Shown here: one piece after another, positions 27,826-41,322 of the stretch
Layout: every line of letters starts with the position of its first letter
Position numbering within the stretch: the stretch's first letter is position 1
Source: a virus
Lineage: Duplodnaviria; Caudoviricetes
IMG/VR virus record: IMGVR_UViG_3300033120_000337
Span: 1 to 64,000 of that record
Length of the DNA stretch: 64,000 nt
Reading direction: 5' to 3' (one strand)
Position numbers and translations under genes: made by a program
The notes under the pieces: generated by a model
What the model saw: only the letters and a program-made list of their open reading frames with translations
What the model was told of the DNA's origin: nothing
Database searches by the model: none

Positions 27826-29003
27826 TCATCGAGAACTCAAACCAACTCGAATGAAGTTCTCAACCTCATTCGGACGGTAGAAGAGACTGGGGTCTTGTAG
27901 AAGAGCCTCCCGAGCTAGTCGAACAGGTTCCTGCCTGTCTCTACCTGAGAGATTGAACTCTGAAATGAGACCCTCGTTGTCGACCTGAGGTCTGCGTAGG
28001 AGGGCCGTAAAGGATGTTCTCTCCGCTAGGGTCATTGAAGACGCTACTCGACGCAGAGAGGCTTGCTGAGAGGCCGTGAGGAACCCCAAAGACTGTGAAC
28101 CCAACCCTAGGTCTGCCATGTCGAGTAGAAGCAAGACATCGTGGGAGGTGGTTTGAAACTGACCTGCCATGTAGGAGGCGAAGGGTCTCTGGGTGGCGAT
28201 CATCTTGGCCAGCACCTCAATGAGCCCAAAGGGCTTCATTGTGACGAGAGCCTCTCGGGCCCCAGTACCCGAGAGGATGTTCTGAACCAAGATGGTGGAG
28301 ACTGCTTCCCAGGGCATGTTCTGAAGCTTCTCGGCATTCTTTCGCATTGAGGTCTCAACCTCAGGTGAGATTTGAAGCCCGTACTTCACGAGGAACTTGA
28401 TTGCCCGCAACATCCTTGTGGGTCATCGGAGAAAGTCCTGTCAGGATCTAGGGGGGTCTGGATGACCTTTTCCGATAGGTGGCGTAGCCCAAGACCTGTG
28501 AGGTCAAGGACTTCAACCCCGTCAGGCCCATTCGTTAGGTCTCCCAATCTCCACAACAGGGTGTTGACCGTGAACTCTCGACGGTAGACGTCTTCCTCTA
28601 TCGTGGCGGGCTGAACATCTGTTGGCTTGTAGCCCTTCCCTTTTCCAGATCCTCCATAGGACTCCTTCCGTGCGTTGGCGATTTCAATCACCTCTCCGGA
28701 CATCTGAGCCCCATCCAGAGTCCAGTCTCCACAGACAGTGATGATGGCCACCCCGTACTGGTTGGTTGTGACGTTGGAGGTCACGGGAATCGCGTTTGCG
28801 ACCTTCTTGGCAAACCAGTCAGAGTCCCTCCCACCCAAAGCAACAGAATCGACCACTACATCGATATCCTTCACCGGAACTCCAAGTAGGTGGTTTCTCA
28901 CTGCGCCTCCAACGACATAGATGTGGTTGCCCACTCCATTGTGGTTGGCGACATCCGAAAGGATTCTCATGAGTCCGGTTGTCTTTTGGTTTGTCTTAGT
29001 CAT
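27826..29003 (-). pseudogene. cca: class II tRNA nucleotidyltransferase (CCA-adding/poly(A) polymerase family), split by a 1-nt frameshift at ~28420
   Basis: YVVGGAVRNHLLG...KDIDVV, EIANARKESY, EDVYRREFTVN, TFSDDP | MLRAIKF; one extra C restores FSDDPTRMLRAIKF. Confidence 0.85.
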
Positions 29004-29622
29004 TTGGTTCCTGGGAAAACACTCCCACAAGGTCTGAGGGGCTACAAGGACCCTCAAGTCGATTCCTGGGAGATGTCGTACATCCACAGACCTCTGAAGG
29101 CATCCGAGTAGGCTCTGTCAGGTTCTACCTAGACACCAAGAAAGTCTTCCTGTATACCAGCCCCTCGTTTCGTTTCCTGTTGTGTTGTTTCAGCAGGACG
29201 TGGAATTCCCTCTCGTCTACGATCTCCTGACCTCTTCCCAAAGAGACTGGATAAGTACCCGAGGACAAGTAGGCCTTCTCCATCATGAGGTCTTACGGGG
29301 TTCCGGACTCGAAAGAGTCGTAGAGCGTCACGGTCGCTATCTACGAAACGGTCTCCCCAACGCGAGAGTTTTGGGATCAAGACAAAGGACTCGTCTTGTG
29401 TAGTCGCCTACAAACCTGAGGCACTCAGAGGTCTGTTACGTAAGAACATACCTTGTCATCTATCTGCCCTCCCGTTCCAGTGGTTAGACTTCCTCTCATG
29501 CGAGAGTAGAGAGGATCAAAGTCTAAGAAGGAATAAGGATCACTCTGAGAGGAGGATCCAAAGAGAAGTAAGGGAAATAAGGGGATAGATGTTCCTTGAG
29601 AACACTTTCAAAATTCAGAATA

Positions 29623-31095: not shown

Positions 31096-31560
31096 CCAAC
31101 TGAGCGTAAGTTAGAGCACGAGGTTTACGGGAGTTGGAAACGACCACCCGAACGGTCAAGAAAAAAAAAGAACCACCTCATGTCGATTTCACTGGACGCC
31201 TCAAACAACATCAGATACAAATCCTTCACTCAATCATGTTCGTCTCTCTAACCACCTTCAAGTCTAGCAAAATGCAATCAGGCATCTCGCCTGTAGTGTA
31301 TTTGAGCCAGCTTGAATCGGGACGCTCAGATTGTGGCTTTGCAGCACGCGAGATCTCCCTCCCAGGAAATATCTTGGTGACTTGACTCTTCTAACCTCTC
31401 CAGGAGAAGATCAGGCCACCTAGGGAAACCAGGTGGCCTGAGTCATTTCAGGGAGAAAAGATGAAATCAGGTTCGTTAGGTTTCAAGACGGGGGAAAGAA
31501 AGTTTGGTTCCTGGGGGGAAAAGAGAAACGTAGGTTCGTTAGGTTTCGAGAAGATTTCAT

Positions 31561-31645
31561 GGAGCGGACGTGGGCACTGGTAGCCCCACCTGTTTGTAAC
31601 ACAGGCGCCCGAAAAGCATTGTGGGTTCGAATCCCTCTCGCTCCA
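31561..31645 (+). tRNA. tRNA-Tyr(GTA)
   Basis: CCTGT-TTGTAAC-ACAGG; long variable arm. Confidence 0.8.
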
Positions 31646-31683
31646 TATGCAGAACAAGCAGAAACGAGGCTCAGTCTCCATCC

Positions 31684-31756
31684 GGGACTGTAGCTCAACA
31701 GGTAGAGCAGCAAGCTTTTAACTTGCGGTATGAGGGTTCAAGTCCCTTCGGTCCCA
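31684..31756 (+). tRNA. tRNA-Lys(TTT)
   Basis: GCAAG-CTTTTAA-CTTGC. Confidence 0.9.
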
Positions 31757-31766
31757 TGGCTTCTTT

Positions 31767-31839
31767 CGGACACAAGCATTAGCGGTGATGCACTAGACTC
31801 TTAATCTGGGGAATTCGGGTTCAACTCCCAGGTGTCCGA
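31767..31839 (+). tRNA. tRNA-Lys(CTT)
   Basis: CTAGA-CTCTTAA-TCTGG. Confidence 0.85.
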
Positions 31840-31881
31840 CTCTTCAAGCTTCAACTCTCAAAGTTCAAAACTCAAAGTTCA

Positions 31882-31954
31882 TTCTCGGATCGTCTAGCGG
31901 TAGGACAGTTGACTCTGACTCAACGAACTGAGGTTCGAATCCTCGTCCGAGAAT
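31882..31954 (+). tRNA. tRNA-Gln(CTG)
   Basis: GTTGA-CTCTGAC-TCAAC. Confidence 0.9.
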
Positions 31955-32207
31955 CCTGAGGTGATAAAGCCACCTTCCTTCAACCGGAAAAAGTGGCTCA
32001 CCTCAAACTGAAAACTGAATATGGAATTCCTTCAGCGTGACTCCACGGGAGCACGCAGAGTTAGGATTCTGAGTTGGGGCCACTTGAGTAGTGGGTATCT
32101 CAACTCAGAGGGCCTTCTCAAGATTGTTCGCGCTTTCCAGTTCTTGCGACCTAGACAACCTAGATAAAATTGAACTGGATATACAGGGAGGAAAGACTCC
32201 CGACTAT

Positions 32208-32279
32208 TCCTGGGTAGCTCAGAGGTAGAGCGACGAGCTGTTAACTCGTTGGTCGTAGGTTCGATTCCTTCCCCAGGAG
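32208..32279 (+). tRNA. tRNA-Asn(GTT)
   Basis: ACGAG-CTGTTAA-CTCGT. Confidence 0.9.
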
Positions 32280-32283
32280 CTTT

Positions 32284-32355
32284 AGGCCACGGTCAGGGTA
32301 ACCGGATTGGACTCCAAATCCGATCGTCTGCAAGGTTCGATTCCTTGGTGGCCTG
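32284..32355 (+). tRNA. tRNA-Trp(CCA)
   Basis: TTGGA-CTCCAAA-TCCGA; atypical short D arm. Confidence 0.8.
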
Positions 32356-32370
32356 TCTTGCTTAGTTCTC

Positions 32371-32442
32371 GCAGCGGTAGCTCAGTGGTAGAGCACTTGA
32401 TTGAAAATCGAGGTGTCGTCGGTTCAATCCCGACTCGTTGCA
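32371..32442 (+). tRNA. tRNA-Phe(GAA)
   Basis: CTTGA-TTGAAAA-TCGAG. Confidence 0.9.
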
Positions 32443-32457
32443 TGTGTCTGTTTCTCT

Positions 32458-32529
32458 CGGGGTGTGGCTCAGTGGTAGAGCGCTCGGTTTGGGATCGAGA
32501 AGTCGCAGGTTCGACCCCTGTCTCCCCGA
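32458..32529 (+). tRNA. tRNA-Pro(TGG)
   Basis: CTCGG-TTTGGGA-TCGAG. Confidence 0.9.
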
Positions 32530-32632
32530 CTCGCATGAATACTTGAAGGGTGTACATCTTTTTGGTAGATCGGCCCTCACGGGCCACTCACTCTTTATCC
32601 CTTGTCATGCGAGTTTCTACTGTGTTCCTGAA

Positions 32633-32665
32633 AAAATGGATGTGTTGATCCAACCATTCAGCAAC
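32633..32665 (+). repeat. dispersed pseudoknot-forming motif, copy 1 of 7
   Basis: AAAATGGATGTGTTGATCCAACCATTCAGCAAC; other copies at 35122, 36293, 38143, 38376, 50723, 60363. Confidence 0.85.
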
Positions 32666-32708
32666 TCATGCGGCTAATCTCAGGTACCTGGCACCTTGAA
32701 GCCATTAC

Positions 32709-32781
32709 GGGCTTGTAGCTCATTTGGGAGAGCGCTTCGATGGCATCGAAGAGGTAAGCGGTTCGATCCCGCTCTGGTCCA
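32709..32781 (+). tRNA. tRNA-Ala(GGC)
   Basis: CTTCG-ATGGCAT-CGAAG; G3:U70. Confidence 0.85.
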
Positions 32782-32918
32782 TTCGTGTGAATACTCGATC
32801 GGGATTACATTGTCCTAACCACAATCGATCTGGGTTCGAATCCCAGGCATCTTCGCAAGAGGGTGAGCAGGGTTGCTAGAAAACATCTCGGTCATTCTTG
32901 TCGCACGATCTATTTTCT

Positions 32919-32991
32919 GTCTCTGTCGTCTAAAAGGCTAGGACCTTGGCCTCTCAAGTCAAGAACAGGAGTTCGAATCTCCTCAGAGACA
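32919..32991 (+). tRNA. tRNA-Glu(CTC)
   Basis: TTGGC-CTCTCAA-GTCAA. Confidence 0.9.
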
Positions 32992-33127
32992 TCAAGCGAA
33001 TTGGAAGTCAGACTACAACCAAGCAGATGGTCGCGGGTTCGAATCCCGTCCTTCGGGTAAAACCGGAGGTAGCTCAGCGGTAGAGCATCCGCCATATACA
33101 CGTCTCCTTCCGTTCTTTGTCGCTTGA
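32992..33127 (+). ncRNA. Y RNA 1 (YrlA-type tRNA mimic)
   Basis: Terminal helix TCAAGCGA/TCGCTTGA with GAAT..TTGTC; T arm precedes a closed acceptor hairpin CCTTCGG-GTAAAA-CCGGAGG, then D arm TAGCTCAGCGGTAGAGC. Confidence 0.8.
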
Positions 33128-33136
33128 ACTATTCCA

Positions 33137-33268
33137 GAGGTGGAATACCTGTGAGGACTACATCTAAACCTCAGTGTCGCTGGTTCAAGTCCAGCCTGCC
33201 CCGCTTCTATGGGGGAGTAGCTCAGTTGGTAGAGCATGAGAATGTCCACGCTAAAACTTGTCCGCCTC
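33137..33268 (+). ncRNA. Y RNA 2 (YrlA-type tRNA mimic)
   Basis: Terminal helix GAGGTGGA/TCCGCCTC with GAAT..TTGTC; T arm GCTGG-TTCAAGT-CCAGC, closed acceptor CTGCCCC..GGGGGAG, D arm TAGCTCAGTTGGTAGAGC. Confidence 0.8.
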
Positions 33269-33283
33269 ACTAACTTCCTTCCT

Positions 33284-33356
33284 GGTGTTTGTAGCTCAAC
33301 GGTAGAGCGCTCGATTGTGGATCGAGATACGAGGGGTTCAACTCCCCCCTTACACC
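33284..33356 (+). tRNA. tRNA-His(GTG)
   Basis: CTCGA-TTGTGGA-TCGAG; G-1 and C73. Confidence 0.9.
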
Positions 33357-33361
33357 CTCAA

Positions 33362-33435
33362 CGGGTATGACGGTCTGGTTGATCTGCTTTCCCTGATAAG
33401 GAGGGCGTGCATGAGTTCGATTCTCTGATACCCGA
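33362..33435 (+). tRNA. tRNA-Ile(GAT)
   Basis: TTTCC-CTGATAA-GGAGG. Confidence 0.8.
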
Positions 33436-33609
33436 TGCCGTGTCCAGGGTCTGTTTGACCTGGCCTCAAGGAACTGGCTCAACAAAAGTTGGGTTGGGCG
33501 CGAACGGATTAGCGTGTGACTCGAATGGGGGAGGTCGTTCTCCCCACTCGCCAGAATGTAGGCCTAGCCGTACCTATGTTCCTGAAAAAAAACTACGGCT
33601 GTTTCTTGA

Positions 33610-33683
33610 TGCGGAGTAGAGCAGTCTGGTAGCTCGCTAGGCTCATAACCTAGAGGTCGGTGGTTCGAATCCATCCTCCGTTA
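33610..33683 (+). tRNA. tRNA-Met(CAT), initiator-like
   Basis: 1:72 mismatch and AGAGCAGTCTGGTAGCTCG D arm; anticodon stem has only two G-C pairs next to the loop. Confidence 0.8.
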
Positions 33684-33752
33684 TTATGCCGGAATCTCAC
33701 CACCATGTTCCCAGGGATGGGACTCCACATGGTGGTCCGGCTCCAACTAAAC

Positions 33753-33825
33753 GGGCATGTAGCTCAGCTGGGAGAGCGGTGGCTTTGCAAGCCATAGGTC
33801 AGGGGTTCGATCCCCCTCTTGTCCA
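33753..33825 (+). tRNA. tRNA-Ala(TGC)
   Basis: GTGGC-TTTGCAA-GCCAT; G3:U70. Confidence 0.9.
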
Positions 33826-33826
33826 T

Positions 33827-33967
33827 GGGAAGATAGCTCAGGAGACGTCTAAGACGTTCGACTTGTCTGAGGAGTACGGGAGACCAAGGGCCCAGAAACA
33901 AAGACAGTTCAGAGCGGCGAGCCAGTAAGCTCGGTGCGCGTCGGTGAAAATCCGATTCTTCCCACCA
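33827..33967 (+). ncRNA. tRNA-like RNA with ~65-nt D-loop insertion and encoded CCA
   Basis: Acceptor GGGAAGA/TCTTCCC-A-CCA; D stem GCTC/GAGC split by insert; CGAGC-CAGTAA-GCTCG; T arm GTCGG-TGAAAAT-CCGAT. Confidence 0.6.
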
Positions 33968-34163
33968 TTTTCCGATAGGTAGTGAATGCCAAATGCGCCT
34001 CGAACCATGAGGAATGAGCGGGGCTAACCACTATCCTTCGGAATCCATTTACTCCTGAAGATGTTGCAAGTAGGTGTCCTGGAAGGTCTTGGGCCAGGAT
34101 AGGAGTTCTCCCCAAGAGAAGGGTTCAAGTCCCACTACTTGCAATGTCTTCAGGTGTAGTTTC

Positions 34164-34235
34164 TCCGCCAAAGCATAAAGGGTGATGCCCCGTCTTGGTA
34201 TGACGGTTAACTGGTTTCAAGCACCAGTGGTGGCT
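34164..34235 (+). tRNA. tRNA-Thr(GGT)
   Basis: CCGTC-TTGGTAT-GACGG. Confidence 0.75.
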
Positions 34236-34245
34236 TGTTTCTTTA

Positions 34246-34654
34246 GGGTCTGTACTGGTTTCGACAGGGTGTGCGAATAGAGAGAGTGCGTGTCGGGCTT
34301 CGTCAGGTCAGCTCGTTAAAAAGATGTGTCAAATAAGCTGCCAACTCAAACAGCTACGTTCCCGCCGCAATGGCTGCGTGAACCGTGGGTACGTGTAGCC
34401 GCCTAGGGCGACATGTACTTGCGTAATCAAATCTAGGTAAAAACCCCGGCTTTTCTTCAGCGGGGGGTCGCAAGACTACTCTGAGGGAATGGTGGAGGGT
34501 ACTACGCGAACCGTGGAACCCCTAAAGGTGGCCCGTTGGGGCTGGGCATCTTAGGTCAAGAGGCTTGCTTCTTGACCACCCGAATTCCAACTACACACGT
34601 AGGACTCGATCTAACTAGCCATTTTGGACGTGGGTTCGATTCCCACCAGATCCA
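34246..34654 (+). ncRNA. ssrA: tmRNA; tag peptide (A)ANSNSYVPAAMAA
   Basis: 5' GGGTCTGTACTGGTTTCGAC; resume codon GCC at 34340 after AAATAAGCT, stop 34379-34381; 3' GACGTGGGTTCGATTCCCACCAGATCCA. Confidence 0.92.
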
Positions 34655-34663
34655 TCAGTGAAT

Positions 34664-34736
34664 GCGGGCGTAGCTCAGTTGGTAGAGCCTCAGTTTTCCA
34701 AACTGAATGTCGTCGGTTCGAATCCGATCGCCCGCT
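34664..34736 (+). tRNA. tRNA-Gly(TCC)
   Basis: TCAGT-TTTCCAA-ACTGA. Confidence 0.9.
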
Positions 34737-34891
34737 ACTCGTCCCCGTGCTGCCAGGGGGAGATCGAGAGATAGGGACCCCTGGACTTGTCCAGGCTAGG
34801 AACCCTACTGGCACAATAGATTTTCGGGTCGGCACGGTTGCGGTGGGTCGCTCCCACCTCGGGTTCAACTCCCATACGGTCCACTCATTTT

Positions 34892-34963
34892 GCGGGTGTA
34901 GGTCAGTGGTAGACCATCAGCTTCCCATGCTGAATGTCGTGGGTTCGACTCCCATCACCCGCT
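34892..34963 (+). tRNA. tRNA-Gly(CCC)
   Basis: TCAGC-TTCCCAT-GCTGA. Confidence 0.9.
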
Positions 34964-35038
34964 CTGGGCTGAATACTCGCCGGGAGTACATCCTTGCACG
35001 GTGAAACCTCTCTCGGTATTTCTTGTCAGTCCTCTAAT

Positions 35039-35109
35039 GACGCTGTCCTTCTGGTGAAGGCATCTGACTGCAAATCAGGTTGAGGGACGTTCAACTCGTC
35101 TCGGCGTCT
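35039..35109 (+). tRNA. tRNA-Cys(GCA)
   Basis: TCTGA-CTGCAAA-TCAGG; U73. Confidence 0.8.
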
Positions 35110-35191
35110 TGACGGTAAGGTGACATGGATGCGCTGATCCAAACCCTCAGCGACCCACAGGGGATTGGATGTAAGTCTACCGTCAGTTTTT

Positions 35192-35263
35192 GTCCTTGTA
35201 GCTCAGTGGAAGAGCAGGAGCCTTCTAAGCTCTTGGTCAGGGGTTCAACTCCCTTCAGGGACG
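35192..35263 (+). tRNA. tRNA-Arg(TCT)
   Basis: GGAGC-CTTCTAA-GCTCT. Confidence 0.9.
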
Positions 35264-35273
35264 TGTTTCTTTA

Positions 35274-35346
35274 GTCCGCATAGTGAAACTGGATATCACG
35301 CATCTCTACGAAAGATGTATTCGGGGTTCGAATCCCTGTGTGGACG
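35274..35346 (+). tRNA. tRNA-Arg(ACG)
   Basis: CATCT-CTACGAA-AGATG. Confidence 0.9.
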
Positions 35347-35429
35347 CTAGTACCTATCATGAATCCTCACCCCTACTTTCGGAAGTCTGAATAAGGGGTC
35401 AGGAAGGAAAGCTCGTCTCAAGATAAACT

Positions 35430-35501
35430 GTCCTTGTGTTGAAGTGGATATCAAGGAAGCCTCCGAAGCTTTCATCCCAAGTTCGAATCTTGGCAAGGAC
35501 G
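35430..35501 (+). tRNA. tRNA-Arg(CCG)
   Basis: GAAGC-CTCCGAA-GCTTT. Confidence 0.85.
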
Positions 35502-35672
35502 TTCCACTGTGTCTCATTCGACGCTCTCGCAGGTGTAGATGAGGAGTCACACAGAAAGGCGTGGGTCTCTCAGCGGTCCACGGGAAGAAAGCATACAGGG
35601 GAAGGCAACTTGCTCTTACTGAGCCCTATCTCAGGAGGGTAATAGCTAGAACTGGAAGCAAGCTGGGGTTTC

Positions 35673-35741
35673 GCCTCTGTCTTCTTGGAGAAGGTCAACT
35701 CTCATAAGGTTGGTGTGACGGTTCGATTCCGTACTGAGGCA
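35673..35741 (+). tRNA. tRNA-Met/Ile2(CAT) with reduced D arm
   Basis: CAACT-CTCATAA-GGTTG; acceptor GCCTCTG/CTGAGGC. Confidence 0.65.
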
Positions 35742-35939
35742 TTGGATGGTCTAAAGGGAAGGAGGCACTTAGCCTGTGTTTCCGGAATCACATGGCTTGT
35801 GATTCCCGAACTTAGACCCTCTGAGTCGTACAAAGCCGTTGGAGACAAACCAACAATGGAGCGGTAGAAGTCCGCGTAAACGGATGTGGAATCCGAACTG
35901 GACAGAATGAGGGTGAGAGACCTTCTGAGTACGATTTTT

Positions 35940-36011
35940 GCGCTTGGATGCCGTTGGATGGCAGCCGCACTGTCTATGCGGTGAAGCTCGGTTCGATTCC
36001 GGTCAGGCGCG
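35940..36011 (+). tRNA. tRNA-Asp(GTC)
   Basis: CCGCA-CTGTCTA-TGCGG. Confidence 0.85.
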
Positions 36012-36169
36012 TTTCCGCTGTGTTCCTGGTAGGTTGCACGTAACAGGGGTTAACACAGAAAGGCGTGGGTGGATGTGCACCCATAGGGAAAAAGTCCAAG
36101 TTCGTGTCGGATGGTGTCTGCGAGTCCTTACGTAGACAGCCAAACAGCGAGTCTTGGGCACATATCTAA

Positions 36170-36241
36170 CGGAGTGTGGCGAAGTGGTATCGCGCTTGGT
36201 TCGGGACCGAGAGATCGCAGGTTCAATCCCTGTCACTCCGA
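36170..36241 (+). tRNA. tRNA-Pro(CGG)
   Basis: CTTGG-TTCGGGA-CCGAG. Confidence 0.9.
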
Positions 36242-36347
36242 AATCCTCATGAGATGGGGAAAAGACCATAGGGTCTTCGTTAATGAGATAGGAAAACGGA
36301 TGCGCTGTTCCAACCCATCAGCGACCTGAGATGAAGAAGAGAAGAAT

Positions 36348-36419
36348 GCACGGGTAGCTCAGCGGTAGAGCGGTTGTCCTACACACAACGGGTCAGGGGT
36401 TCGACTCCCTTTTCGTGCA
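36348..36419 (+). tRNA. tRNA-Val(TAC), C at position 33
   Basis: GTTGT-CCTACAC-ACAAC. Confidence 0.8.
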
Positions 36420-36577
36420 AAACAAAAACCCACCTAGGTAGCAAGGATTCAGTTCCTTGCATAACGTTCAGGGAGGTGGGGAGAGCGGATAGAGTGAACG
36501 TACTCCGCTTACAAATACCGGACAAGGAAGAGCATAGAGAGGTTTCCTCAATACACCTCTTCCTTGATCTTGGACAA

Positions 36578-36657
36578 GCCCGAGTGGTGAAATTGGCATA
36601 CACACCGTCCTCAGAAGGCGGCGCGAAAGCGTGTGGGTTCGACTCCCGCCTCGGGCA
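36578..36657 (+). tRNA. tRNA-Leu(CAG)
   Basis: CCGTC-CTCAGAA-GGCGG; variable arm. Confidence 0.9.
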
Positions 36658-36674
36658 CTGTTTCTGTTTGTAAT

Positions 36675-36758
36675 GAGGATGTGGCGGAATTGGTATACGC
36701 GCCAGACTAAGAATCTGGTGGTCTTAGAATCGTGTGGGTTCGACTCCCACCATCCTCA
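36675..36758 (+). tRNA. tRNA-Leu(AAG)
   Basis: CCAGA-CTAAGAA-TCTGG; Leu-type D arm and variable arm. Confidence 0.85.
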
Positions 36759-36843
36759 TGGGTTAGGCAACTTCGTGCAGACAAAATGTCACTGATCATG
36801 ACGTCGTTGTCGGTCGTTGCCCAACTCAGTTTCTCAGTTCTAT

Positions 36844-36918
36844 GAGGGGATAGCCCAACGGCAGAGGCAGGGTCTTTAAGATTCCCCAAGGTGGTGGGTT
36901 CGAATCCCCCTCTCCTTA
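36844..36918 (+). tRNA. tRNA-Leu(TAA), degenerate anticodon stem
   Basis: GGGTC-TTTAAGA-TTCCC by counting from the D arm; two mismatches. Confidence 0.6.
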
Positions 36919-36923
36919 GTTTT

Positions 36924-37004
36924 GCGAAGGTGGCGGAATGGCATACGCGCTGGGTTTAGGTTCCAGTATCTTCGGGTGTGAGGGTTCGAGTCCCTCTCTT
37001 CGCA
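36924..37004 (+). tRNA. tRNA-Leu(TAG)
   Basis: CTGGG-TTTAGGT-TCCAG. Confidence 0.9.
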
Positions 37005-37024
37005 TTGGTTTTTGAGTCTCAAAC

Positions 37025-37104
37025 GCGGGAATGGCGGAATTGGCATACGCATCGGCTTCAAAACCCGACGAGAAATCTTGAGGGTTCGACTCCCTCTTCC
37101 CGCA
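37025..37104 (+). tRNA. tRNA-Leu(CAA)
   Basis: TCGGC-TTCAAAA-CCCGA. Confidence 0.85.
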
Positions 37105-37138
37105 CAACAACAAACAGAAAGGTAGGTAGACCGTGCAA

Positions 37139-37660
37139 ATGACTCTTGTATTGGATCAAGGCTACCAGCCTCATCGGGTAGTCACATGGCAGCGAGCTGT
37201 GATGCTGTGGTGGGAGGGTAAGTGTGAGGTCGTTGAAGAGTACGACAACGACATTCGAAGTGTGTCCATCACAATCAAGATGCCTGCTGTTGTTCGACTC
37301 TTGCACAGAGTGCGGGGGAAGAAGCAGGCTGTGAAGTTCTCTCGGATCAACGTTGCGACTCGTGACAACTTCACCTGTCAATACTGCGTCAAGAAGCTCC
37401 CTCTCTCGAAGCTTACGTACGACCACGTTGTACCTAAGTCCAAGGGTGGAAAGACTTGCTGGGAGAACATCGTGATGGCTTGTCACCCCTGTAACGAGGG
37501 GAAGAGAGATCGCTCACCCGAGCAAGCAGGTCTGAAGCTGCGTAAGCAGCCAGTCAAACCAGCTTACTTGCCAGTAGTGACCATGAGATTTGAGATGACC
37601 AACATCCCTGATGCTTGGGTATCCTACGTCTACTGGAACTCTCCTCTCGAAGAGGGCTAG
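37139..37660 (+). CDS. HNH endonuclease (free-standing)
   Basis: RDNFTCQYC...LTYDHVVPKSKGG.TCWENIVMACHPCN.GK. Confidence 0.9.
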   Translation: MTLVLDQGYQPHRVVTWQRAVMLWWEGKCEVVEEYDNDIRSVSITIKMPAVVRLLHRVRGKKQAVKFSRINVATRDNFTCQYCVKKLPLSKLTYDHVVPKSKGGKTCWENIVMACHPCNEGKRDRSPEQAGLKLRKQPVKPAYLPVVTMRFEMTNIPDAWVSYVYWNSPLEEG

Positions 37661-38193
37661 TTTTGATTTCGATGTGGTTTCTCTGAATCCGGTCTCTAAC
37701 GAATGGCTGAAGACACTCTCTGGTCACGGGGGGTAAGGCAGCAATCTGGAGAACGGTTGTATCGTCGCTGTGAAGGAAAGTACGGGGCAGGAGATTTCGA
37801 GCTACTAGGCCTGGCATTAGGTTCTCCAGGTTCGAGATCTCTCTGGCAGGCGCTAAGAATACAATCCAGTGCTGCTCGCCTTGAGGGTAAAAGCCCTTCG
37901 AGTTGTTGAAGCCGACCGGCCAGTCGGTTGAGACTCGTGTCCGAATAACTAACTTTCACGGTTACGTCCTGGGGTGGAATCTCAGGTCGATAGAGGACGG
38001 GTTCAGGGAAACCACAAAGATTTCCGGACGACTTTTCGGAGTCGGCAAATGCATGGGCGGGACGGCGTCCATGGGAATACAACGATTGTCAGGTGACTGG
38101 CAGTCAGACCCGTCCTCTTTTCTTTACAGTGTCTCAACTGTGAAAATGGCTGTGCTGAGCCAACCCAATCAGTGACTACCTGTCCGTTGATCT

Positions 38194-38280
38194 GGAAGTT
38201 GAATCTGTCAGGGACAGAGCCTGTTTCGAACACAGTGCGCTCTTCGTAAGAAGAGTGGGGATCAAGACCTCCGATTTCCG
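38194..38280 (+). tRNA. tRNA-Ser(CGA)
   Basis: CTGT-TTCGAAC-ACAG; long variable arm; T-loop ATCAAGA. Confidence 0.75.
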
Positions 38281-38289
38281 TGTCTGATT

Positions 38290-38374
38290 GGAAGCTGAAA
38301 TGGCCAGGGGTCATTACTGCTTGGAAAGCAGCTAGCACCTGAAAGGGTGTGGAGTTCGAGTCTTCCGGCTTCCG
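38290..38374 (+). tRNA. tRNA-Ser(GGA)
   Basis: CTGC-TTGGAAA-GCAG; variable arm. Confidence 0.85.
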
Positions 38375-38445
38375 TGAAATGGATGCGTTGATCCAACCCA
38401 TCAGCGACAAGTCGCGGTTCTAGGCCTGATCAGCAATGTGATAAT

Positions 38446-38532
38446 GGAGGGTAATCTCGGCCGGGCCGAGCACTGCCTTGAAAACAGAGGGCTCCTTGAA
38501 AGAGGGGTGGAGTTCGACTCTTCTGCTCTCCA
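38446..38532 (+). tRNA. tRNA-Ser(TGA)
   Basis: CTGC-CTTGAAA-ACAG; variable arm. Confidence 0.8.
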
Positions 38533-38535
38533 TTT

Positions 38536-38620
38536 GGAAGGTGAACTGGCCAGGGGTCAGTCCGGTTTGCTAAACCGAGAGTGCTCGCAAGGGCATGGGG
38601 ATCAGGACCTCCTCCTTCCG
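38536..38620 (+). tRNA. tRNA-Ser(GCT)
   Basis: CGGT-TTGCTAA-ACCG; T-loop ATCAGGA. Confidence 0.85.
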
Positions 38621-38631
38621 TTTCCGTTTCT

Positions 38632-38703
38632 GCGGGTGTAGCTCAGTGGTAGAGCGTTTCGTTGCCAACGAAAATGTCGCGGGTTCAATCCCCGCTACCC
38701 GCT
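38632..38703 (+). tRNA. tRNA-Gly(GCC)
   Basis: TTTCG-TTGCCAA-CGAAA. Confidence 0.9.
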
Positions 38704-38810
38704 TGTGTGAACTCAACACAACCTCCTAGAGGGTGACGTGTTCTCACAATTTGTCCTCCAGAAAACTGGAGGAAGGAATTCCTGTTCAGGAAAACATCGG
38801 GGTAGATACT

Positions 38811-40442
38811 GTGGCAAACAAGAATCTCTTTCAATCCGCTCCAGCGGGTCGCGTCGCGCCGATTGCCGACACAGTCAACGCAGCTGGTGGTTTGGCGTAC
38901 AAGGCTTCTCAGAAGGAAGCTCTTGCTCAGTACGTGGCTACTGGTTGTCTGGGTTCAACGTTCTACTCGACAGATGAGGAACAGTTGGACACGATCTTGA
39001 AGCTCGCTGCTTCAGTGGATCCTGAGTTCGTTGCGAAGGCAGCGATCTACGGACACAAGTCAGCCTTCATGAAGGACGCTCCGGCCCTCCTTCTGGCTCA
39101 CCTCATGACACGTGGAGAGCCTGGTATCGCAGCCATGAAGTCTGCTTTCTTCCAGGTCATCGACAACCCAAAGATGATGCGGACTTTCGCTCAGATTGTC
39201 CGGTCTGGTCGGGTTGGTCGAAAGTCTTTTGGTACGGCACCAAAGAAGCTGATTGAGACTTGGTTCCTGAACCGTACAGATGCTCAGTTGATCCGTGCAA
39301 CAGGTGACAAGCCTTCGATTGCAGACGTGGTCAAGATGGTTCACCCAAAGCCAGCCACACCTGAGCGGAAGGAAACTTACGCTTGGCTCGTGGACAAGAA
39401 GGTCGACCTCGAAAAGGCAGATCCTCTTCTTCAGGAGTACGAGGCTTGGAAGAAGGACACCACTCGTCCGATTCCTGATGTTCCGTTCCTCATGCTCTCG
39501 AATGCGAAACTCACGAAGTCTCAGTGGGTGGAAATCGCACTCTCTGCTTCTTGGCAGACTTTGCGTATGAACATCAACACGTTCCAACGTCACGGTGTTT
39601 TCGAGGACGCAGCCACGGTCAAAAAGCTTGCAGACAAGCTTCGTGATGAGGACTCGATTCTTCGGGCTCGGGTATTCCCATACCAACTCCTTGTTGCGTA
39701 CAAGCACACTGAGGCTGCTCCCATGGAGATCCAGAACGCTCTTCAGGATGCGATGGAAATTGCGACCAAGAACGTTCCTTCCTTTGATGGTCTGAAGGTT
39801 GCGGTTTTCCCAGACGTGTCTGGGTCTATGGCTTCCCCAGTCACAGGCACTCGAAAGGGTGCTACTTCGAAGGCTCAGTGCAGAGAGGTCGCTGCCCTCA
39901 TTGCAGCTACGATCCTTCGTAGGAACCCAGATGCCATTGTTCTTCCCTTCAAGGAAGACATTGTGAAGCTGAGGTTCAACCCACGCGATTCGATCATGAC
40001 GATCGCCAAGCAGATTGCGGAATGCGGCTCAGGTGGTACAGACTGCTCAGCTCCTCTGAGGGCTCTGAACGCAACCAAGGAGAAGGTGGACATCTGCATC
40101 TTCGCCTCGGACAATGAGTCTTGGATGGACAGCAAGGTCGTTCAAAACTCTTGGTCCTCTGGTTACACATCATCGGCTACCAAGTCGATGATCGAGTGGG
40201 AGGCAATCCGTGCTCGGAACCCAAAGGCGAAGTTGGTTTGCATTGACCTCGCTCCCAACGGCTCACGTCAGGCTCCTACACGTGAGGACATCCTCAATGT
40301 AGGCGGATTCTCGGATGAAGTGTTCACCCTCATGTCTGAGTTCGTAAAGGGCTCAGGTAGAGATCACTGGGTGAAGAAGATCGAGGCGATCGGTTCAAAG
40401 CCTACAGAAACGAAAAACGTTCCTGTAGAGGCTTCACCTTAG
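38811..40442 (+). CDS. rsr: Ro60/Rsr ribonucleoprotein (TROVE + vWA domains)
   Basis: VNAAGGLAY...LAQYVATGCLGSTFY, MKDAPALL, QTLRMNINTF.RHGVF, RVFPYQL, PDVSGSM, GGTDCSAPL, SDNESW; GTG start (track value 38733). Confidence 0.9.
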   Translation: MANKNLFQSAPAGRVAPIADTVNAAGGLAYKASQKEALAQYVATGCLGSTFYSTDEEQLDTILKLAASVDPEFVAKAAIYGHKSAFMKDAPALLLAHLMTRGEPGIAAMKSAFFQVIDNPKMMRTFAQIVRSGRVGRKSFGTAPKKLIETWFLNRTDAQLIRATGDKPSIADVVKMVHPKPATPERKETYAWLVDKKVDLEKADPLLQEYEAWKKDTTRPIPDVPFLMLSNAKLTKSQWVEIALSASWQTLRMNINTFQRHGVFEDAATVKKLADKLRDEDSILRARVFPYQLLVAYKHTEAAPMEIQNALQDAMEIATKNVPSFDGLKVAVFPDVSGSMASPVTGTRKGATSKAQCREVAALIAATILRRNPDAIVLPFKEDIVKLRFNPRDSIMTIAKQIAECGSGGTDCSAPLRALNATKEKVDICIFASDNESWMDSKVVQNSWSSGYTSSATKSMIEWEAIRARNPKAKLVCIDLAPNGSRQAPTREDILNVGGFSDEVFTLMSEFVKGSGRDHWVKKIEAIGSKPTETKNVPVEASP

Positions 40443-40479
40443 ACCTCTTACCGCCTCGGTAGCATCTCTATGCTCCGCC

Positions 40480-40902
40480 ATGAAGAAGAAAGGATTCTTC
40501 ATGGCGGAGAGCAAGAGAAAAGGAGACGTAGGAGAGGCTATGGTGTTGGCCGATGTTTTGAGGCAAGGACACAAGGTCGCTCTCCCTGTGGGTGAGGATT
40601 GGAGATACGACTTAATTGTTCTGAGGCATGGGAAGTTGGAAAGAGTTCAATGTAAGTACGTTGAATCCGATGGCTTGGTGATTGAAGTTCCAGGTCGGAG
40701 TTCAAATTCTCATTCAACTCGTCTATACACCTCAGATGAGATTGACTGCCTCGCAGTTTATGACAAGACAACTGAGTCTTGTTACTACATCCCATCCTCT
40801 GAGATAGGGTCTGGTAAGTCCTTGTTTTCCCTTAGGTTAGTTCCTTCTTCAAATGGTCAGGTTAAGAGAGTACGTTGGGCAAAAGACTACAAGTCTTGGT
40901 GA
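40480..40902 (+). CDS. PD-(D/E)XK endonuclease (group I intron-associated type, free-standing)
   Basis: KGDVGEA.V...L.QGHKV.LP.GEDWRYDLIV...L.RVQCK...YTSDEID.LAVY. Confidence 0.8.
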   Translation: MKKKGFFMAESKRKGDVGEAMVLADVLRQGHKVALPVGEDWRYDLIVLRHGKLERVQCKYVESDGLVIEVPGRSSNSHSTRLYTSDEIDCLAVYDKTTESCYYIPSSEIGSGKSLFSLRLVPSSNGQVKRVRWAKDYKSW

Positions 40903-40907
40903 TTTCT

Positions 40908-40980
40908 GCCTCTATAGCTCAGTTGGAAGAGCACCCTCCTTGTAAGTGGGATGTCGTCGGTTCGATTCCGACTGGAGGCT
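40908..40980 (+). tRNA. tRNA-Thr(TGT)
   Basis: CCCTC-CTTGTAA-GTGGG. Confidence 0.9.
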
Positions 40981-40995
40981 TGGTTTCTGTTTCTT

Positions 40996-41068
40996 GGCCC
41001 CATCGTCTATTGGTTAGGATTGTGGATTTTCACTCCACAAAACGTGGGTTCGATTCCCCGTGGGGTCA
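40996..41068 (+). tRNA. tRNA-Glu(TTC)
   Basis: GTGGA-TTTTCAC-TCCAC. Confidence 0.9.
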
Positions 41069-41082
41069 TTTCATTTCAGCAC

Positions 41083-41153
41083 TCTGGGTTCGTCTAAAGG
41101 CAGGACGTCGGACTTTGAATCCGTGAATGGAGGTTCGATTCCTCCACCCAGAA
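41083..41153 (+). tRNA. tRNA-Gln(TTG)
   Basis: TCGGA-CTTTGAA-TCCGT. Confidence 0.9.
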
Positions 41154-41293: not shown

Positions 41294-41322
41294 ATTTGGG
41301 GTTTCTGGCGCCTCAAAGAGTA

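What the first reader, a model, noticed from the sequence alone, without database searches (positions are those of the whole stretch)
32992..40442. Phage-encoded Ro60/Rsr with two tandem YrlA-type Y RNAs inside the tRNA island
Seen: 32992-33127 and 33137-33268 each have tRNA arms in permuted order: T arm first, then an acceptor-like stem closed as a hairpin (CCTTCGG-GTAAAA-CCGGAGG; CTGCCCC-GCTTCTAT-GGGGGAG), then the D arm. They have no anticodon loop; that stem runs into a long helix pairing the 5' and 3' ends. Both carry GAAT after the 5' strand, TTGTC before the 3' strand, and GACTACA. A full TROVE+vWA protein is encoded ~5.5 kb downstream in the same island. Established: this is the architecture of bacterial YrlA Y RNAs that bind Ro60/Rsr, and such RNPs are rare in phages. 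Inference: the phage deploys its own Ro RNP with two Y RNA paralogues, either for RNA quality control or as anticodon-less tRNA decoys or sensors against host tRNA-cleaving defences.
Basis: partly seen in the sequence, partly recalled or inferred. Interest (0 to 1): 0.9.

Follow-up and report, generated by a model that had tools for sequence, protein, structure and literature searches.

The report
Phage Ro60 with five Y RNAs
A large uncultured phage encodes its own Ro60 ring protein and, between its tRNA genes, five small Y RNAs (two of them inside-out tRNA mimics); this particle is already known from other phages, so it is a well-supported new example and not a new kind of system.

Summary
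32992-33127 and 33137-33268 are YrlA-type Y RNAs: T arm, closed 7-bp acceptor-like hairpin, D arm, no anticodon loop, and a terminal helix. Rfam YrlA matches both, but below its gathering score. 38733-40442 (likely start 38811) encodes a full Ro60/Rsr: ring plus vWA, MIDAS motif kept, and the best PDB matches are all Ro60.

The tRNA island holds five Y-RNA-like genes sharing one handle: terminal stem, GAAU(A/U)N loop, second stem ending in YUACA, then CUUGUC. The other three are 32530-32613, 32783-32908 and 34966-35032.

Across 53 such genes in this and 12 related phage records, both handle stems covary. Thirty of 49 genes start within a few bases of the upstream tRNA's 3' end, which suggests release by tRNA-processing enzymes. 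Nine of ten phage contigs found by the RNA alone also encode this Ro60.

The kind is known: YrlA beside Ro60 in 22 phages (Chen 2014), and two Ro60-bound Yrl RNAs in Thermus phage phiLo (2025). CcrColossus also has a YrlA cluster. Earlier notes of this scan report similar handle-sharing RNA sets beside Ro60-like genes on other phage DNA.

Function (RNA quality control, possibly with host PNPase) is inferred. The anticodon-nuclease decoy idea is weak, because these RNAs have no anticodon loop. Verdict: new member of a known kind, moderate interest.

The parts
32530..32613 (+). Y-RNA-like gene 1, short form. It has a 9-bp terminal stem, GAAUAC loop, second stem ending GGGUGUACAU, and small hairpins in place of a tRNA-like domain (YrlB-like). 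It starts at the 3' end of tRNA-Pro.
   Evidence: Own model R1: 26.1 bits, E 1.4e-4. MFE -33.2 kcal/mol, z -4.5, 0 of 200 shuffles as good. Handle 7/7 and 8/8 paired. Gap to tRNA-Pro 1 nt.
32783..32908 (+). Y-RNA-like gene 2. It has the handle, a T arm (CTGGGTTCGAATCCCAG), a closed 7-bp acceptor-like hairpin with GCAA loop, and a degenerate D arm. It starts 2 nt after tRNA-Ala and ends 10 nt before tRNA-Glu.
   Evidence: R1: 44.6 bits, E 4e-9. The fold shows all elements. Orthologues L005:2575-2701, L007:4928-5055 and L008:1772-1899.
32992..33127 (+). YrlA-type Y RNA (W1). It has the handle plus a full permuted tRNA-like domain: V region, T arm, closed 7-bp acceptor hairpin, D arm. It abuts the 3' end of tRNA-Glu.
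   Evidence: Rfam YrlA local hit 36.3 bits, E 1.6e-6. MFE z -2.96. Aligns full length with relatives. Orthologue L005:3718-3852 has a different but still paired acceptor hairpin.
33137..33268 (+). YrlA-type Y RNA (W2), 9 nt after W1 and 16 nt before tRNA-His.
   Evidence: Rfam YrlA full-length 53.4 bits, E 1.8e-11. Covariation. Relatives at the same site before tRNA-His/Ile: L008:285-421 and L007:5379-5514.
34966..35032 (+). Y-RNA-like gene 5, short form (handle plus a small apical loop), lying exactly between tRNA-Gly(ccc) and tRNA-Cys.
   Evidence: R1: 29.7 bits, E 1.9e-5. Fold. Handle 7/7 and 8/8 paired. Orthologue L005:5725-5793 lies between the same tRNAs.
38733..40442 (+). Ro60/Rsr gene (HEAT-repeat TROVE ring plus vWA domain). 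The longest ORF starts at GTG 38733. The conserved N-terminus (V/M-ANKNLF) points to GTG 38811 as the real start.
   Evidence: Pfam vWA_Ro60 2.2e-19 and TROVE 7.8e-6. phmmer against D. radiodurans Rsr 2nvo 2e-20 over residues 48-540, and phiLo Ro60 3e-16. AlphaFold model pLDDT 76.9; PDB ranks 1-13 are all Ro60, TM 0.58-0.75. MIDAS residues DVSGSM, GGT and SDNES are invariant in 11 relatives. Start site.
31560..41153 (+). tRNA island that carries the Y RNA genes: 34 ARAGORN tRNA calls and a tmRNA, all on the + strand, none with an encoded CCA end.
27826..29087 (-). Context: a CCA-adding/poly(A) polymerase-type nucleotidyltransferase. It is read as two overlapping ORFs (head domain 28386-29087, RNA-binding part 27826-28413). 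It is needed for CCA-less tRNAs and could add CCA to opened Y RNA acceptor ends.
   Evidence: PolyA_pol 1.3e-15. PolyA_pol_RNAbd 0.0059, weak.
8349..9332 (+). Context: RlaP-family nucleotidyltransferase (RNA-repair-associated Pol-beta family), conserved in the related huge phages.
   Evidence: Pfam RlaP 1.1e-18. phrog_388 4.6e-62. Present in G001, G003 and G004.

Best explanation
The phage encodes a complete Ro60-Y RNA ribonucleoprotein system: one Ro60/Rsr protein and five Y RNA genes embedded in its tRNA operon.

All five RNAs share a constant handle: a terminal stem, an asymmetric internal loop (5' GAAU(A/U)N, 3' ..CUUGUC), and a second stem ending in the YUACA motif. This corresponds to the Ro60-binding module of bacterial YrlA.

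The apical heads differ:
- two full tRNA-like domains in permuted order (W1, W2)
- one with a T arm, acceptor hairpin and decayed D arm
- two plain hairpins (YrlB-like)

Inferred mechanism:
1. The RNAs are transcribed with the tRNAs.
2. They are cut out by the tRNA-processing enzymes. RNase Z-type cleavage after the upstream CCA-less tRNA would make the Y RNA 5' end. RNase P cleavage at the next tRNA, plus trimming, would make the 3' end.
3. Phage Ro60 then binds the handle.
4. The different heads tether or gate Ro60 toward different partners. By analogy with D. radiodurans, Salmonella and Thermus phage phiLo, the most likely partner is the host PNPase or another exoribonuclease, so that structured or damaged RNA is handled during infection.

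Shown here: the RNA architecture, covariation, the Ro60 fold, RNA-protein co-occurrence, and abutment to tRNAs. Inferred: expression, binding, processing route and physiological role.
For: - Rfam YrlA hits to W2 (full length, E 1.8e-11) and W1 (core, E 1.6e-6).
- The structure is supported by covariation: 18 of 21 pairs have double changes, 92.7% pair against 38-50% when slid, and 0 of 500 shuffles reach this.
- Five window copies were detected with the clade model R1, each folding into handle plus head.
- Over 53 genes from 13 records, the terminal stem pairs 6.68/7 and stem 2 pairs 7.09/8. Partner-swap controls give 5.63 and 5.82 (sd about 0.1). There are 46 different stem-1 sequences.
- The Ro60 is full length and fold-verified with MIDAS intact.
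- Co-occurrence from an RNA-first search: 9 of 10 IMG/VR records with a YrlA hit of 45 bits or more encode this Ro60. Only about 0.7% of phage records match it at all.
- Thirty of 49 Y RNA genes begin -2 to +4 nt from the upstream tRNA's 3' end and none at 5-20 nt. Twenty-six of 46 end 20 nt or less before the next tRNA.
- The island's tRNAs lack encoded CCA, and the phage has a CCA-adding-type enzyme.
- Precedents: Rsr-bound YrlA/YrlB processed from one precursor, and Yrn1/Yrn2 made with tRNA-Asp (PMC4201824). phiLo Ro60 binds two phage Yrl RNAs and assembles with host PNPase (PMC12135203).
Against: - Both tRNA-like copies score below Rfam's YrlA gathering threshold (53.4 and 36.3 against 69 bits).
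- The published 5' motif GNCGAAN0-1G is only partly kept. W1 has AGCGAAUUG. W2 has GGUGGAAUA, where the C is replaced, with a compensating change on the 3' strand.
- The genes lie 3.7-6.2 kb from Ro60, mostly outside the 4-kb rule used by Chen 2014. In one relative (G005) the best copies are about 40 kb from Ro60.
- One apparently complete 57-kb phage (G012) has a strong YrlA hit and no Ro60, so the RNA can exist without a phage Ro60.
- There is no direct evidence of transcription, ends or binding.
- No RtcB ligase was found in this contig or in a complete 392-kb relative, so the Salmonella-type rsr-yrlA-rtcBA repair context is absent.
Confidence: 0.85

Rival explanations
1. The RNAs act mainly without Ro60, as tRNA-shaped decoys or sensors. 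They would titrate or trigger host factors that read the tRNA elbow or acceptor end (defence nucleases, RNase P, CCA enzyme, modification enzymes). The Ro60 gene would be a separate function in the same island.
For: - The T and D arms of W1 and W2 are near-perfect tRNA consensus.
- One complete-looking phage has a YrlA and no Ro60.
- In G005 the RNAs lie about 40 kb from Ro60.
- The island looks like a tRNA replacement set with a CCA enzyme.
Against: - Two of the five copies have no tRNA-like part yet keep the same handle. The conserved, selected part is therefore the Ro60-type handle, not the tRNA mimic.
- Nine of 10 RNA-selected records encode Ro60.
- There is no anticodon loop, so anticodon nucleases cannot be decoyed.
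Confidence: 0.1
2. W1 and W2 are circularly permuted or split tRNA genes. Their transcripts would be rearranged, or opened at the acceptor loop, to give decoding, chargeable tRNAs.
For: - The order T arm, acceptor hairpin, D arm is a circular permutation of tRNA.
- The acceptor hairpins are 7 bp, the length that lets RNase P cut M. smegmatis YrlA.
- The phage has a CCA-adding-type enzyme.
Against: - There is no anticodon stem-loop. The position of the anticodon stem runs into the conserved handle.
- ARAGORN and the Rfam tRNA model find no tRNA there.
- The same handle closes copies with no tRNA parts.
- Opening at the acceptor loop would give a nicked Y RNA with a CCA end, as in M. smegmatis, and not a decoding tRNA.
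Confidence: 0.03
3. The matches are artefacts: decayed tandem tRNA genes, in which the T arm of one tRNA and the D arm of the next imitate YrlA.
For: The YrlA model does give this false positive. Examples are 34626-34688 (tmRNA end plus tRNA-Gly), 32299-32428 and 33643-33821. It also fires in six control genomes.
Against: - In W1 and W2 the two acceptor strands pair with each other as a closed hairpin that covaries across relatives.
- A terminal helix and second stem enclose the unit and covary.
- No anticodon arms flank them.
- Orthologues are kept in phages whose Ro60 is only 44-76% identical.
Confidence: 0.02

Closest known systems
YrlA / YrlB Y RNAs with Rsr (bacterial Ro60) - Rfam RF02553; Chen et al. 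2014, PMC4201824 (includes 22 phages: mycobacteriophages, CcrColossus, phage G)
   Same: - Permuted tRNA-like domain (V, T arm, closed acceptor stem, D arm) closed by a Ro60-binding helix.
- The YUAY motif and a G15:C48-type Levitt pair.
- A second, shorter Y RNA type without a full tRNA domain.
- Same strand as Ro60, and made with neighbouring RNAs from one precursor.
- A 7-bp acceptor stem, as in the RNase P-cleaved M. smegmatis YrlA.
   Different: - Five genes per island (two or more in nearly all relatives sampled, and ten or more in one 392-kb relative), where Chen 2014 reported about 1.3 per genome on average.
- The genes are interleaved with tRNA genes and usually abut a tRNA 3' end.
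- They lie 3.7-6.2 kb from Ro60.
- The 5' motif is GAAU(G/A)C, with the C of CGAA free to covary.
- Scores are below the Rfam gathering cut-off.
Thermus phage phiLo Ro60 with Yrl1 and Yrl2 (PMC12135203; PDB 9KOP, 9L5Y)
   Same: - Phage-encoded Ro60 with more than one phage-encoded Y-like RNA upstream on the same strand.
- The protein matches by sequence (E 3e-16) and by fold (TM 0.73-0.75 on the target).
   Different: - The phiLo RNAs are described as stem-bulge-stem RNAs with a CGAA motif directly upstream of the gene, not as tRNA mimics inside a tRNA array.
- Binding and PNPase assembly were shown experimentally there and not here.
Caulobacter phage CcrColossus TROVE gene with upstream YrlA-like cluster
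   Same: Several T arm / closed hairpin / D arm elements in a row, next to a tRNA and the TROVE gene (R1 hits of 66, 54, 33, 31 and 24 bits within 1 kb).
   Different: - The elements are packed within 1 kb of the gene.
- The closing helix has a different 3' motif (..CTTGTTCCCC).
- In GenBank the elements are unannotated or labelled as terminators.
D. radiodurans Yrn1/Yrn2-Rsr-PNPase (RYPER)
   Same: Y RNAs are made as a polycistronic precursor with a tRNA. The Y RNA tethers Ro60 to an exoribonuclease. This is the functional model adopted here.
   Different: Yrn1 has the opposite orientation of T and D elements and an independent origin. No PNPase gene or interaction was examined here.
Myxococcus phage Mx1 (OR576727.2)
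   Same: It is the closest cultured relative by Ro60 (43% identity over 93%). Its Ro60 lies in a tRNA island, and it has two handle-bearing Y RNAs after tRNA-Pro and tRNA-Ile (L033:1501-1629 and 1853-1959).
   Different: - A smaller genome (170 kb).
- Two copies found, with degenerate D arms.
- The RNAs are not annotated in the record.

Membership tests
YrlA (Rfam RF02553) | Score at or above the curated gathering threshold (69 bits) | tested here: not met
   W2 scores 53.4 bits full length. W1 scores 36.3 bits as a local match to model positions 24-84. E-values are still 1.8e-11 and 1.6e-6 for the region searched.
YrlA (Rfam RF02553) | tRNA-like domain in the order V region, T arm, closed acceptor-like stem-loop, D arm, with no anticodon loop | tested here: met
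   Sequence, CM alignment, and covariation of T, AS and D helices. Fully met for W1 and W2, partly for 32783-32908 (D arm decayed), and not for the two short copies.
YrlA (Rfam RF02553) | 5' Ro60-binding motif GNCGAAN0-1G (Chen 2014) | tested here: inconclusive
   W1 has AGCGAAUUG and W2 has GGUGGAAUA. Across 53 clade members the loop after the stem begins AUGC in 36 and AUAC in 10, while the base at the 'C' position varies and covaries with the 3' strand. The motif is related but not identical.
YrlA (Rfam RF02553) | Conserved YUAY at the start of the V loop, and a Levitt-type 15:48 pair | tested here: met
   CUAC is present in W1 and W2. UACAU or a one-base variant is present in 52 of 53 clade members. 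G15 in the D loop and C before the T stem are present in both, read from the sequence (my own numbering by analogy with tRNA).
YrlA (Rfam RF02553) | Encoded on the same strand as, and within 4 kb of, a Ro60 gene (operational criterion of Chen 2014) | tested here: not met
   Same strand: yes. Distance from the RNA's 3' end to 38733 is 5.6 kb (W1) and 5.5 kb (W2). Only the short copy at 34966-35032 is within 4 kb (3.7 kb). Co-occurrence at the record level is strong.
YrlA (Rfam RF02553) | Bound by Rsr/Ro60 in vivo; carries tRNA modifications (pseudouridine 55, dihydrouridine) | not testable with these tools
   Needs RIP or EMSA and modification mapping.
Ro60 / Rsr (TROVE) | HEAT-repeat ring followed by a vWA domain, full length | tested here: met
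   Pfam vWA_Ro60 and TROVE. phmmer against 2nvo covers residues 48-540. AlphaFold model: PDB ranks 1-13 are all Ro60 over 516-569 columns.
Ro60 / Rsr (TROVE) | MIDAS motif in the vWA domain (DxSxS ... T ... D) | tested here: met
   D361-V-S363-G-S365, G434-G-T436 and D460 are invariant in 11 relatives and align with the same residues of D. radiodurans Rsr.
Ro60 / Rsr (TROVE) | Specific binding of a Y RNA helix on the outer ring surface | not testable with these tools
   Only indirect evidence: 9 of 10 RNA-selected records encode the protein.
Circularly permuted tRNA genes | All tRNA parts present, including an anticodon stem with a 7-nt loop, so that rearrangement yields a decoding tRNA | tested here: not met
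   There is no anticodon loop. A 3-bp closing stem leads into the handle. ARAGORN and the Rfam tRNA model make no call.

The most novel reading that the evidence does not exclude
These phages run a modular Y RNA toolkit. One Ro60 handle is combined with interchangeable heads. The tRNA-processing machinery releases the RNAs from the tRNA operon. The three heads with a 7-bp acceptor hairpin are then opened by RNase P and given CCA by the phage's own nucleotidyltransferase. The result would be Ro60-tethered, possibly chargeable tRNA mimics that direct Ro60 (and a bound exonuclease) to ribosomes or to tRNA-handling enzymes during infection.
Probability: 0.12. Interest if true: 0.75.

Novelty: new member of a known kind. 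Interest (0 to 1): 0.45.

Why it matters
What the tRNA-like domain of bacterial Y RNAs is for remains an open question (Chen 2014 states that the interactors are unknown).

This phage clade offers a natural experiment. The same Ro60 handle carries full tRNA-like heads, partial heads and no head, within one operon. There are dozens of covarying examples and a cultured relative (Myxococcus phage Mx1) in which binding, processing and knock-outs can be done.

It also shows that Y RNA genes can sit several kb from Ro60 and be hidden among tRNA genes, where the usual '4 kb from Ro60' and 'discard tandem tRNA' filters miss them.

For annotation, five intergenic gaps of this tRNA island can now be labelled.

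Tried and rejected
- **Expression.** Sequencing-run search and read laying. Near-identical pieces of the island occur in wastewater metatranscriptome assemblies (X16, X19) and in 'RNA-Seq' metagenomes. These are Logan contigs mixed with other organisms' tRNA fragments, so they show neither Y RNA transcripts nor ends. No conclusion was drawn.\n- **Sigma-70 promoter and terminator scan of 30800-41600.** One promoter-like site against 5.7 expected, and 14 terminator-like sites against 10.3. Uninformative for the transcription units.\n- **RtcB ligase (PF01139).** Not found in this contig, three relatives or Mx1. The Salmonella-type rsr-yrlA-rtcBA operon model was dropped.\n- **Host or taxon.** tblastn with the 1067-aa protein at 15213-18416 found no phage match. 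The host remains unknown.\n- **Literature.** Supplementary tables of Chen 2014, which list copy numbers per phage, are not held. Two Wolin-lab reviews are not held. No paper on the Mx1 genome was found. I therefore could not check whether multi-copy phage YrlA arrays were tabulated before.\n- **False positives set aside.** R1 and Rfam hits that overlap ARAGORN tRNA pairs or the tmRNA end (34577-34722, 32299-32428, 33643-33821, and many in the relatives) were discarded as the known tandem-tRNA artefact.\n- **Motif scan.** The 15-base motif scan of IMG/VR returns many hits expected by chance. Only loci confirmed with R1 were used.\n- **Script faults.** A first handle-scoring script failed, and a second mis-set the 3' anchor.

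Full report
**What the window is.** The window is the first 64 kb of a 72,447-base IMG/VR viral contig that CheckV rates 16% complete, so it is a fragment of a very large phage. Between 31560 and 41153 on the + strand ARAGORN finds 34 tRNA genes and a tmRNA. Rfam confirms 28 tRNAs and the tmRNA at gathering score. None of the island's tRNAs encodes a CCA end.

Around the island lie replication and nucleotide-metabolism genes: RNR large and small subunits, a RecD-like helicase, a RecA-like protein and clamp-loader subunits. There are also RNA-related genes:
- a CCA-adding/poly(A) polymerase-type nucleotidyltransferase at 27826-29087 (-)
- an RlaP-family nucleotidyltransferase at 8349-9332
- an RNase T-like exonuclease at 4371-5024

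| | W1 (32992-33127) | W2 (33137-33268) |
|---|---|---|
| Terminal helix | 8 bp | 8 bp |
| 5' loop motif | GAAU | GAAU |
| Before the T arm | GACUACA | GACUACA |
| T arm | consensus | consensus |
| Acceptor-like hairpin | 7 bp, closed by GUAAAA | 7 bp, closed by GCUUCUAU |
| D arm | consensus | consensus |
| Into the 3' helix strand | UUGUC | UUGUC |

Neither is called as a tRNA. Rfam's YrlA model aligns W2 from end to end (53.4 bits, E 1.8e-11) and aligns the core of W1 (36.3 bits, E 1.6e-6). Both are below the curated 69-bit threshold.

The same model also fires on true tandem tRNAs, for example 34626-34688, which is the tmRNA T arm plus the next tRNA's D arm, and it fires in six control genomes. 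Chen et al. warned of this artefact (PMC4201824), so the CM hit alone is not enough.

**Relatives and covariation.** The protein at 38733-40442 brought in ten IMG/VR loci with Ro60 relatives at 43-76% identity, plus Myxococcus phage Mx1 at 43%. All but the shortest of these records (18 kb) have YrlA-model hits.

I aligned W1, W2 and 15 non-tRNA-overlapping hits with MAFFT. RNAalifold recovers the terminal helix, T stem, closed acceptor hairpin and D stem, and 18 of 21 pairs show compensatory changes. The explicit count gives:
- 92.7% of cells paired, against 38-50% with slid partners
- 79 cells with double changes, against 23 in shuffles
- 0 of 500 shuffles as good

The closed acceptor hairpin changes sequence completely between orthologues while staying paired. 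W1 has CCUUCGG/CCGGAGG, and its orthologue L005:3718-3852 reads differently. This rules out decayed tandem tRNAs.

**There are five genes, not two.** A clade model built from that alignment (R1) finds three more elements in the window:
- 32784-32910 (44.6 bits)
- 34966-35035 (29.7 bits)
- 32532-32614 (26.1 bits)

I tested their claim here.

All five fold into the same frame:
1. a 7-9 bp terminal stem
2. an asymmetric internal loop (5' AUAC or AUUG, 3' ...CUUG)
3. an 8-bp second stem ending in GGGA(C/G/U)-UACA(U/A)
4. a variable head

The heads are two complete tRNA-like domains (W1, W2), one with a T arm, a 7-bp GCAA-capped acceptor hairpin and a decayed D arm (32783-32908), and two with only small hairpins (32530-32613, 34966-35032). 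The last two resemble the short YrlB partners known from Salmonella and M. smegmatis.

**The handle is what is conserved.** R1 hits in the related loci that do not overlap tRNAs, together with the window's five, give 53 genes from 13 records. Per sampled stretch there are:
- five or six in the closest relatives
- at least ten in a complete 392-kb phage (G004)
- two in Mx1

I scored the handle by anchoring on the conserved loop motifs:

| Measure | Observed | Partner-swap control |
|---|---|---|
| Terminal stem paired | 6.68 of 7 | 5.63 (sd 0.08) |
| Second stem paired | 7.09 of 8 | 5.82 (sd 0.10) |

There are 46 distinct stem-1 strands. The loop after stem 1 begins AUGC or AUAC in 46 of 53, UACAU follows stem 2 in 40 of 53, and the 3' loop ends in YYUG or YUCG. 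This is the same module as in the Rfam YrlA consensus (CgaAUGC..gaaCUAc...AcUuGucG). Chen 2014 assign its 5' strand to Rsr binding, and they list YUAY as a conserved YrlA feature.

**The protein.** Several lines identify it as a complete Ro60:
- Pfam finds vWA_Ro60 (2e-19) and a weak TROVE match.
- phmmer aligns residues 48-540 to D. radiodurans Rsr (2nvo, 2e-20). It also finds the Thermus phage phiLo Ro60 (9kop/9l5y, 3e-16) and the human and frog Ro60 structures (9nen, 1yvp).
- An AlphaFold model built on 11 relatives (pLDDT 76.9) has all Ro60 structures as PDB ranks 1-13, over 516-569 aligned columns with TM 0.58-0.75. Nothing else scores below E 1e-3.
- The MIDAS residues (DVSGSM, GGT, SDNES) are invariant.

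The first 57 residues of the longest ORF are disordered and unconserved. Relatives start at M-ANK, so GTG 38811 (V-ANKNLF) is the likely start.

**Do RNA and protein go together?** The first set of relatives was chosen through the protein, so I also searched from the RNA side.
1. I scanned IMG/VR for GAATGC-N4-9-GGACTACAT. Many of those hits are expected by chance.
2. I kept loci confirmed by R1.
3. I searched the whole records of those 19 loci with the Ro60 profile.

Nine of the ten records with a YrlA hit of 45 bits or more encode this Ro60 (E 1e-110 or better). Among all phage records only 364 of 50,697 match it. The exception is a 57-kb contig rated complete (G012), which has an 86-bit YrlA and no Ro60. 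Records with only weak, short hits mostly lack Ro60 and may be chance hits or fragments.

**How the RNAs are probably made.** In the window each Y RNA except W2 begins 0-2 nt after the upstream tRNA:
- tRNA-Pro, then Y1
- tRNA-Ala, then Y2
- tRNA-Glu, then W1
- tRNA-Gly, then Y5

W2 follows W1 after 9 nt. Four of the five end 6-17 nt before the next tRNA or Y RNA. Y1 ends 95 nt before tRNA-Ala.

Across the family, 30 of 49 genes start between -2 and +4 nt of an upstream tRNA end and none start at 5-20 nt. Twenty-six of 46 end within 20 nt of the next tRNA.

The tRNAs are CCA-less, so their 3' ends should be cut directly after the discriminator base. That cut would create the Y RNA 5' end, and RNase P cleavage at the next tRNA plus trimming would set the 3' end. 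This is an inference. It matches the known co-transcription of D. radiodurans Yrn1/Yrn2 with tRNA-Asp and of M. smegmatis YrlA/YrlB from one precursor.

The order of tRNA and Y RNA cassettes differs between the window and its closest relative. In L005 the long copy follows tRNA-Pro and the short one follows tRNA-Ala, and a tRNA-Arg separates the W2-like and W1-like copies. The tandem W1-W2 arrangement is therefore particular to this phage.

**What it most likely does.** By analogy with the characterised systems, the handle binds Ro60 and the head gates or tethers it. In D. radiodurans and Salmonella the Y RNA joins Rsr to PNPase. The phiLo phage Ro60 binds two phage Yrl RNAs and assembles with host PNPase in vitro. 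I therefore favour a phage Ro RNP that recruits a host exoribonuclease to handle structured or damaged RNA during infection, with several heads giving several specificities.

The role in this phage is not shown. The repair-operon context of Salmonella is absent, since no RtcB was found even in the complete relative. An RlaP-family enzyme is conserved in the clade.

It remains a minority alternative for factors that read the tRNA elbow.

Three of the heads have 7-bp acceptor hairpins. That is the feature that makes M. smegmatis YrlA an RNase P substrate that then gains CCA. The same could happen here, and the phage carries a CCA-adding-type enzyme. This is the boldest reading the data allow, and I rate it at about 12%.

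**Comparison with what is known.** Phage Ro60 genes have been known since Bxz1. Chen 2014 reported YrlA next to Ro60 in 22 phages. Jumbo-phage surveys note the TROVE protein with its tRNA-like partner. phiLo (2025) gives structures and binding data.

With R1 I also find four or five YrlA-like elements within 1 kb upstream of the CcrColossus TROVE gene, and one upstream of the Ro gene of mycobacteriophage ScottMcG. Earlier notes of this scan describe sets of handle-sharing RNAs beside Ro60-like genes in other phages. I did not test those.

What this locus adds:
- a clade of huge, Mx1-related phages with expanded, head-swapped Y RNA families
- genes hidden among tRNA genes, several kb from Ro60
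- a regular abutment of Y RNA 5' ends to tRNA 3' ends

This is a new member of a known kind, with some new detail, and not a new system.

**Limits.**
- There is no evidence here for transcription, RNA ends or binding. The metatranscriptome contigs were uninformative.
- Copy numbers in relatives are lower bounds from partial loci.
- R1 was built from the family it was then used to find, so its scores for W1 and W2 are by construction. The independent supports are the Rfam hits, the MAFFT-based covariation and the RNA-first co-occurrence test.
- The handle scoring chooses the best-pairing 3' window. The control uses the same choice, but it is still a fitted measure.

Noticed in passing
window 34246-34657: Phage-encoded tmRNA (Rfam 132.7 bits; tag peptide ANSNSYVPAAMAA by ARAGORN) in the middle of the tRNA island. 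Its 3' part (34577-34610) contains CCGAAUUCC...ACUACAC, which resembles the Y RNA handle motifs. With the next tRNA's D arm it gives a 41.7-bit R1 hit, which I set aside as an artefact.
   Followed up: partly
window 36843-36919: ARAGORN calls a tRNA with anticodon UUA (it would read the UAA stop codon). The Rfam tRNA model does not reach its gathering score there. Whether this is a suppressor tRNA or a poor call was not examined.
   Followed up: no
window 27826-29087 (-): The CCA-adding/poly(A) polymerase-type enzyme is read as two overlapping ORFs: head domain at 28386-29087, and a weak RNA-binding-domain match at 27826-28413. This may be a frameshift, a sequencing error or a genuinely split gene.
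   Followed up: no
window 33826-34245, 35503-35672, 35742-35938, 36013-36169, 36421-36577, 31957-32207: Several gaps of 150-420 nt in the tRNA island have no tRNA, Y RNA or convincing ORF. Other first-reader notes place a 141-nt tRNA-like RNA at 33827-33967 and a repeated pseudoknot motif in the island. I did not test these.
   Followed up: no
window 37133-37660 and 40480-40902: An HNH endonuclease and a PD-(D/E)XK (PDDEXK_5) endonuclease sit inside the tRNA island on either side of Ro60. They are probably homing-type endonucleases. Mx1 also has HNH genes in its island.
   Followed up: partly
window 30241-31095: A protein with an ART-PolyVal ADP-ribosyltransferase domain (4e-10) lies just upstream of the tRNA island.
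   Followed up: no
L048:9774-9908 (IMGVR_UViG_3300021062_000017, 57 kb, rated 100% complete): A strong YrlA-type hit (86 bits with R1) in a phage record with no detectable Ro60. It may be a Y RNA that relies on the host's Rsr, or one that works without Ro60.
   Followed up: partly
L044:11980-12937 (Caulobacter phage CcrColossus, JX100810.1 about 108490-109450): Four or five YrlA-like elements (T arm, closed hairpin, D arm) lie in a row within 1 kb upstream of the TROVE gene. In the GenBank record the region is unannotated apart from two predicted terminators (one overlaps the first element) and a tRNA-Gln.
   Followed up: partly
L005:2575-3852 compared with window 32530-33268: The order of tRNA and Y RNA cassettes is shuffled between this phage and its closest relative. 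The long and short Y RNAs swap places after tRNA-Pro and tRNA-Ala, and a tRNA-Arg is inserted between the W2-like and W1-like copies. This suggests that tRNA-plus-Y-RNA units move as cassettes.
   Followed up: partly
G017 C1:17364-19016 and G018 C1:16722-18371: In two related records the Ro60 profile matches in two adjacent pieces (profile positions 4-306 and 304/307-532) about 70-80 nt apart, within one open frame of about 564 codons. This is probably an insertion in the ring-vWA linker.
   Followed up: no
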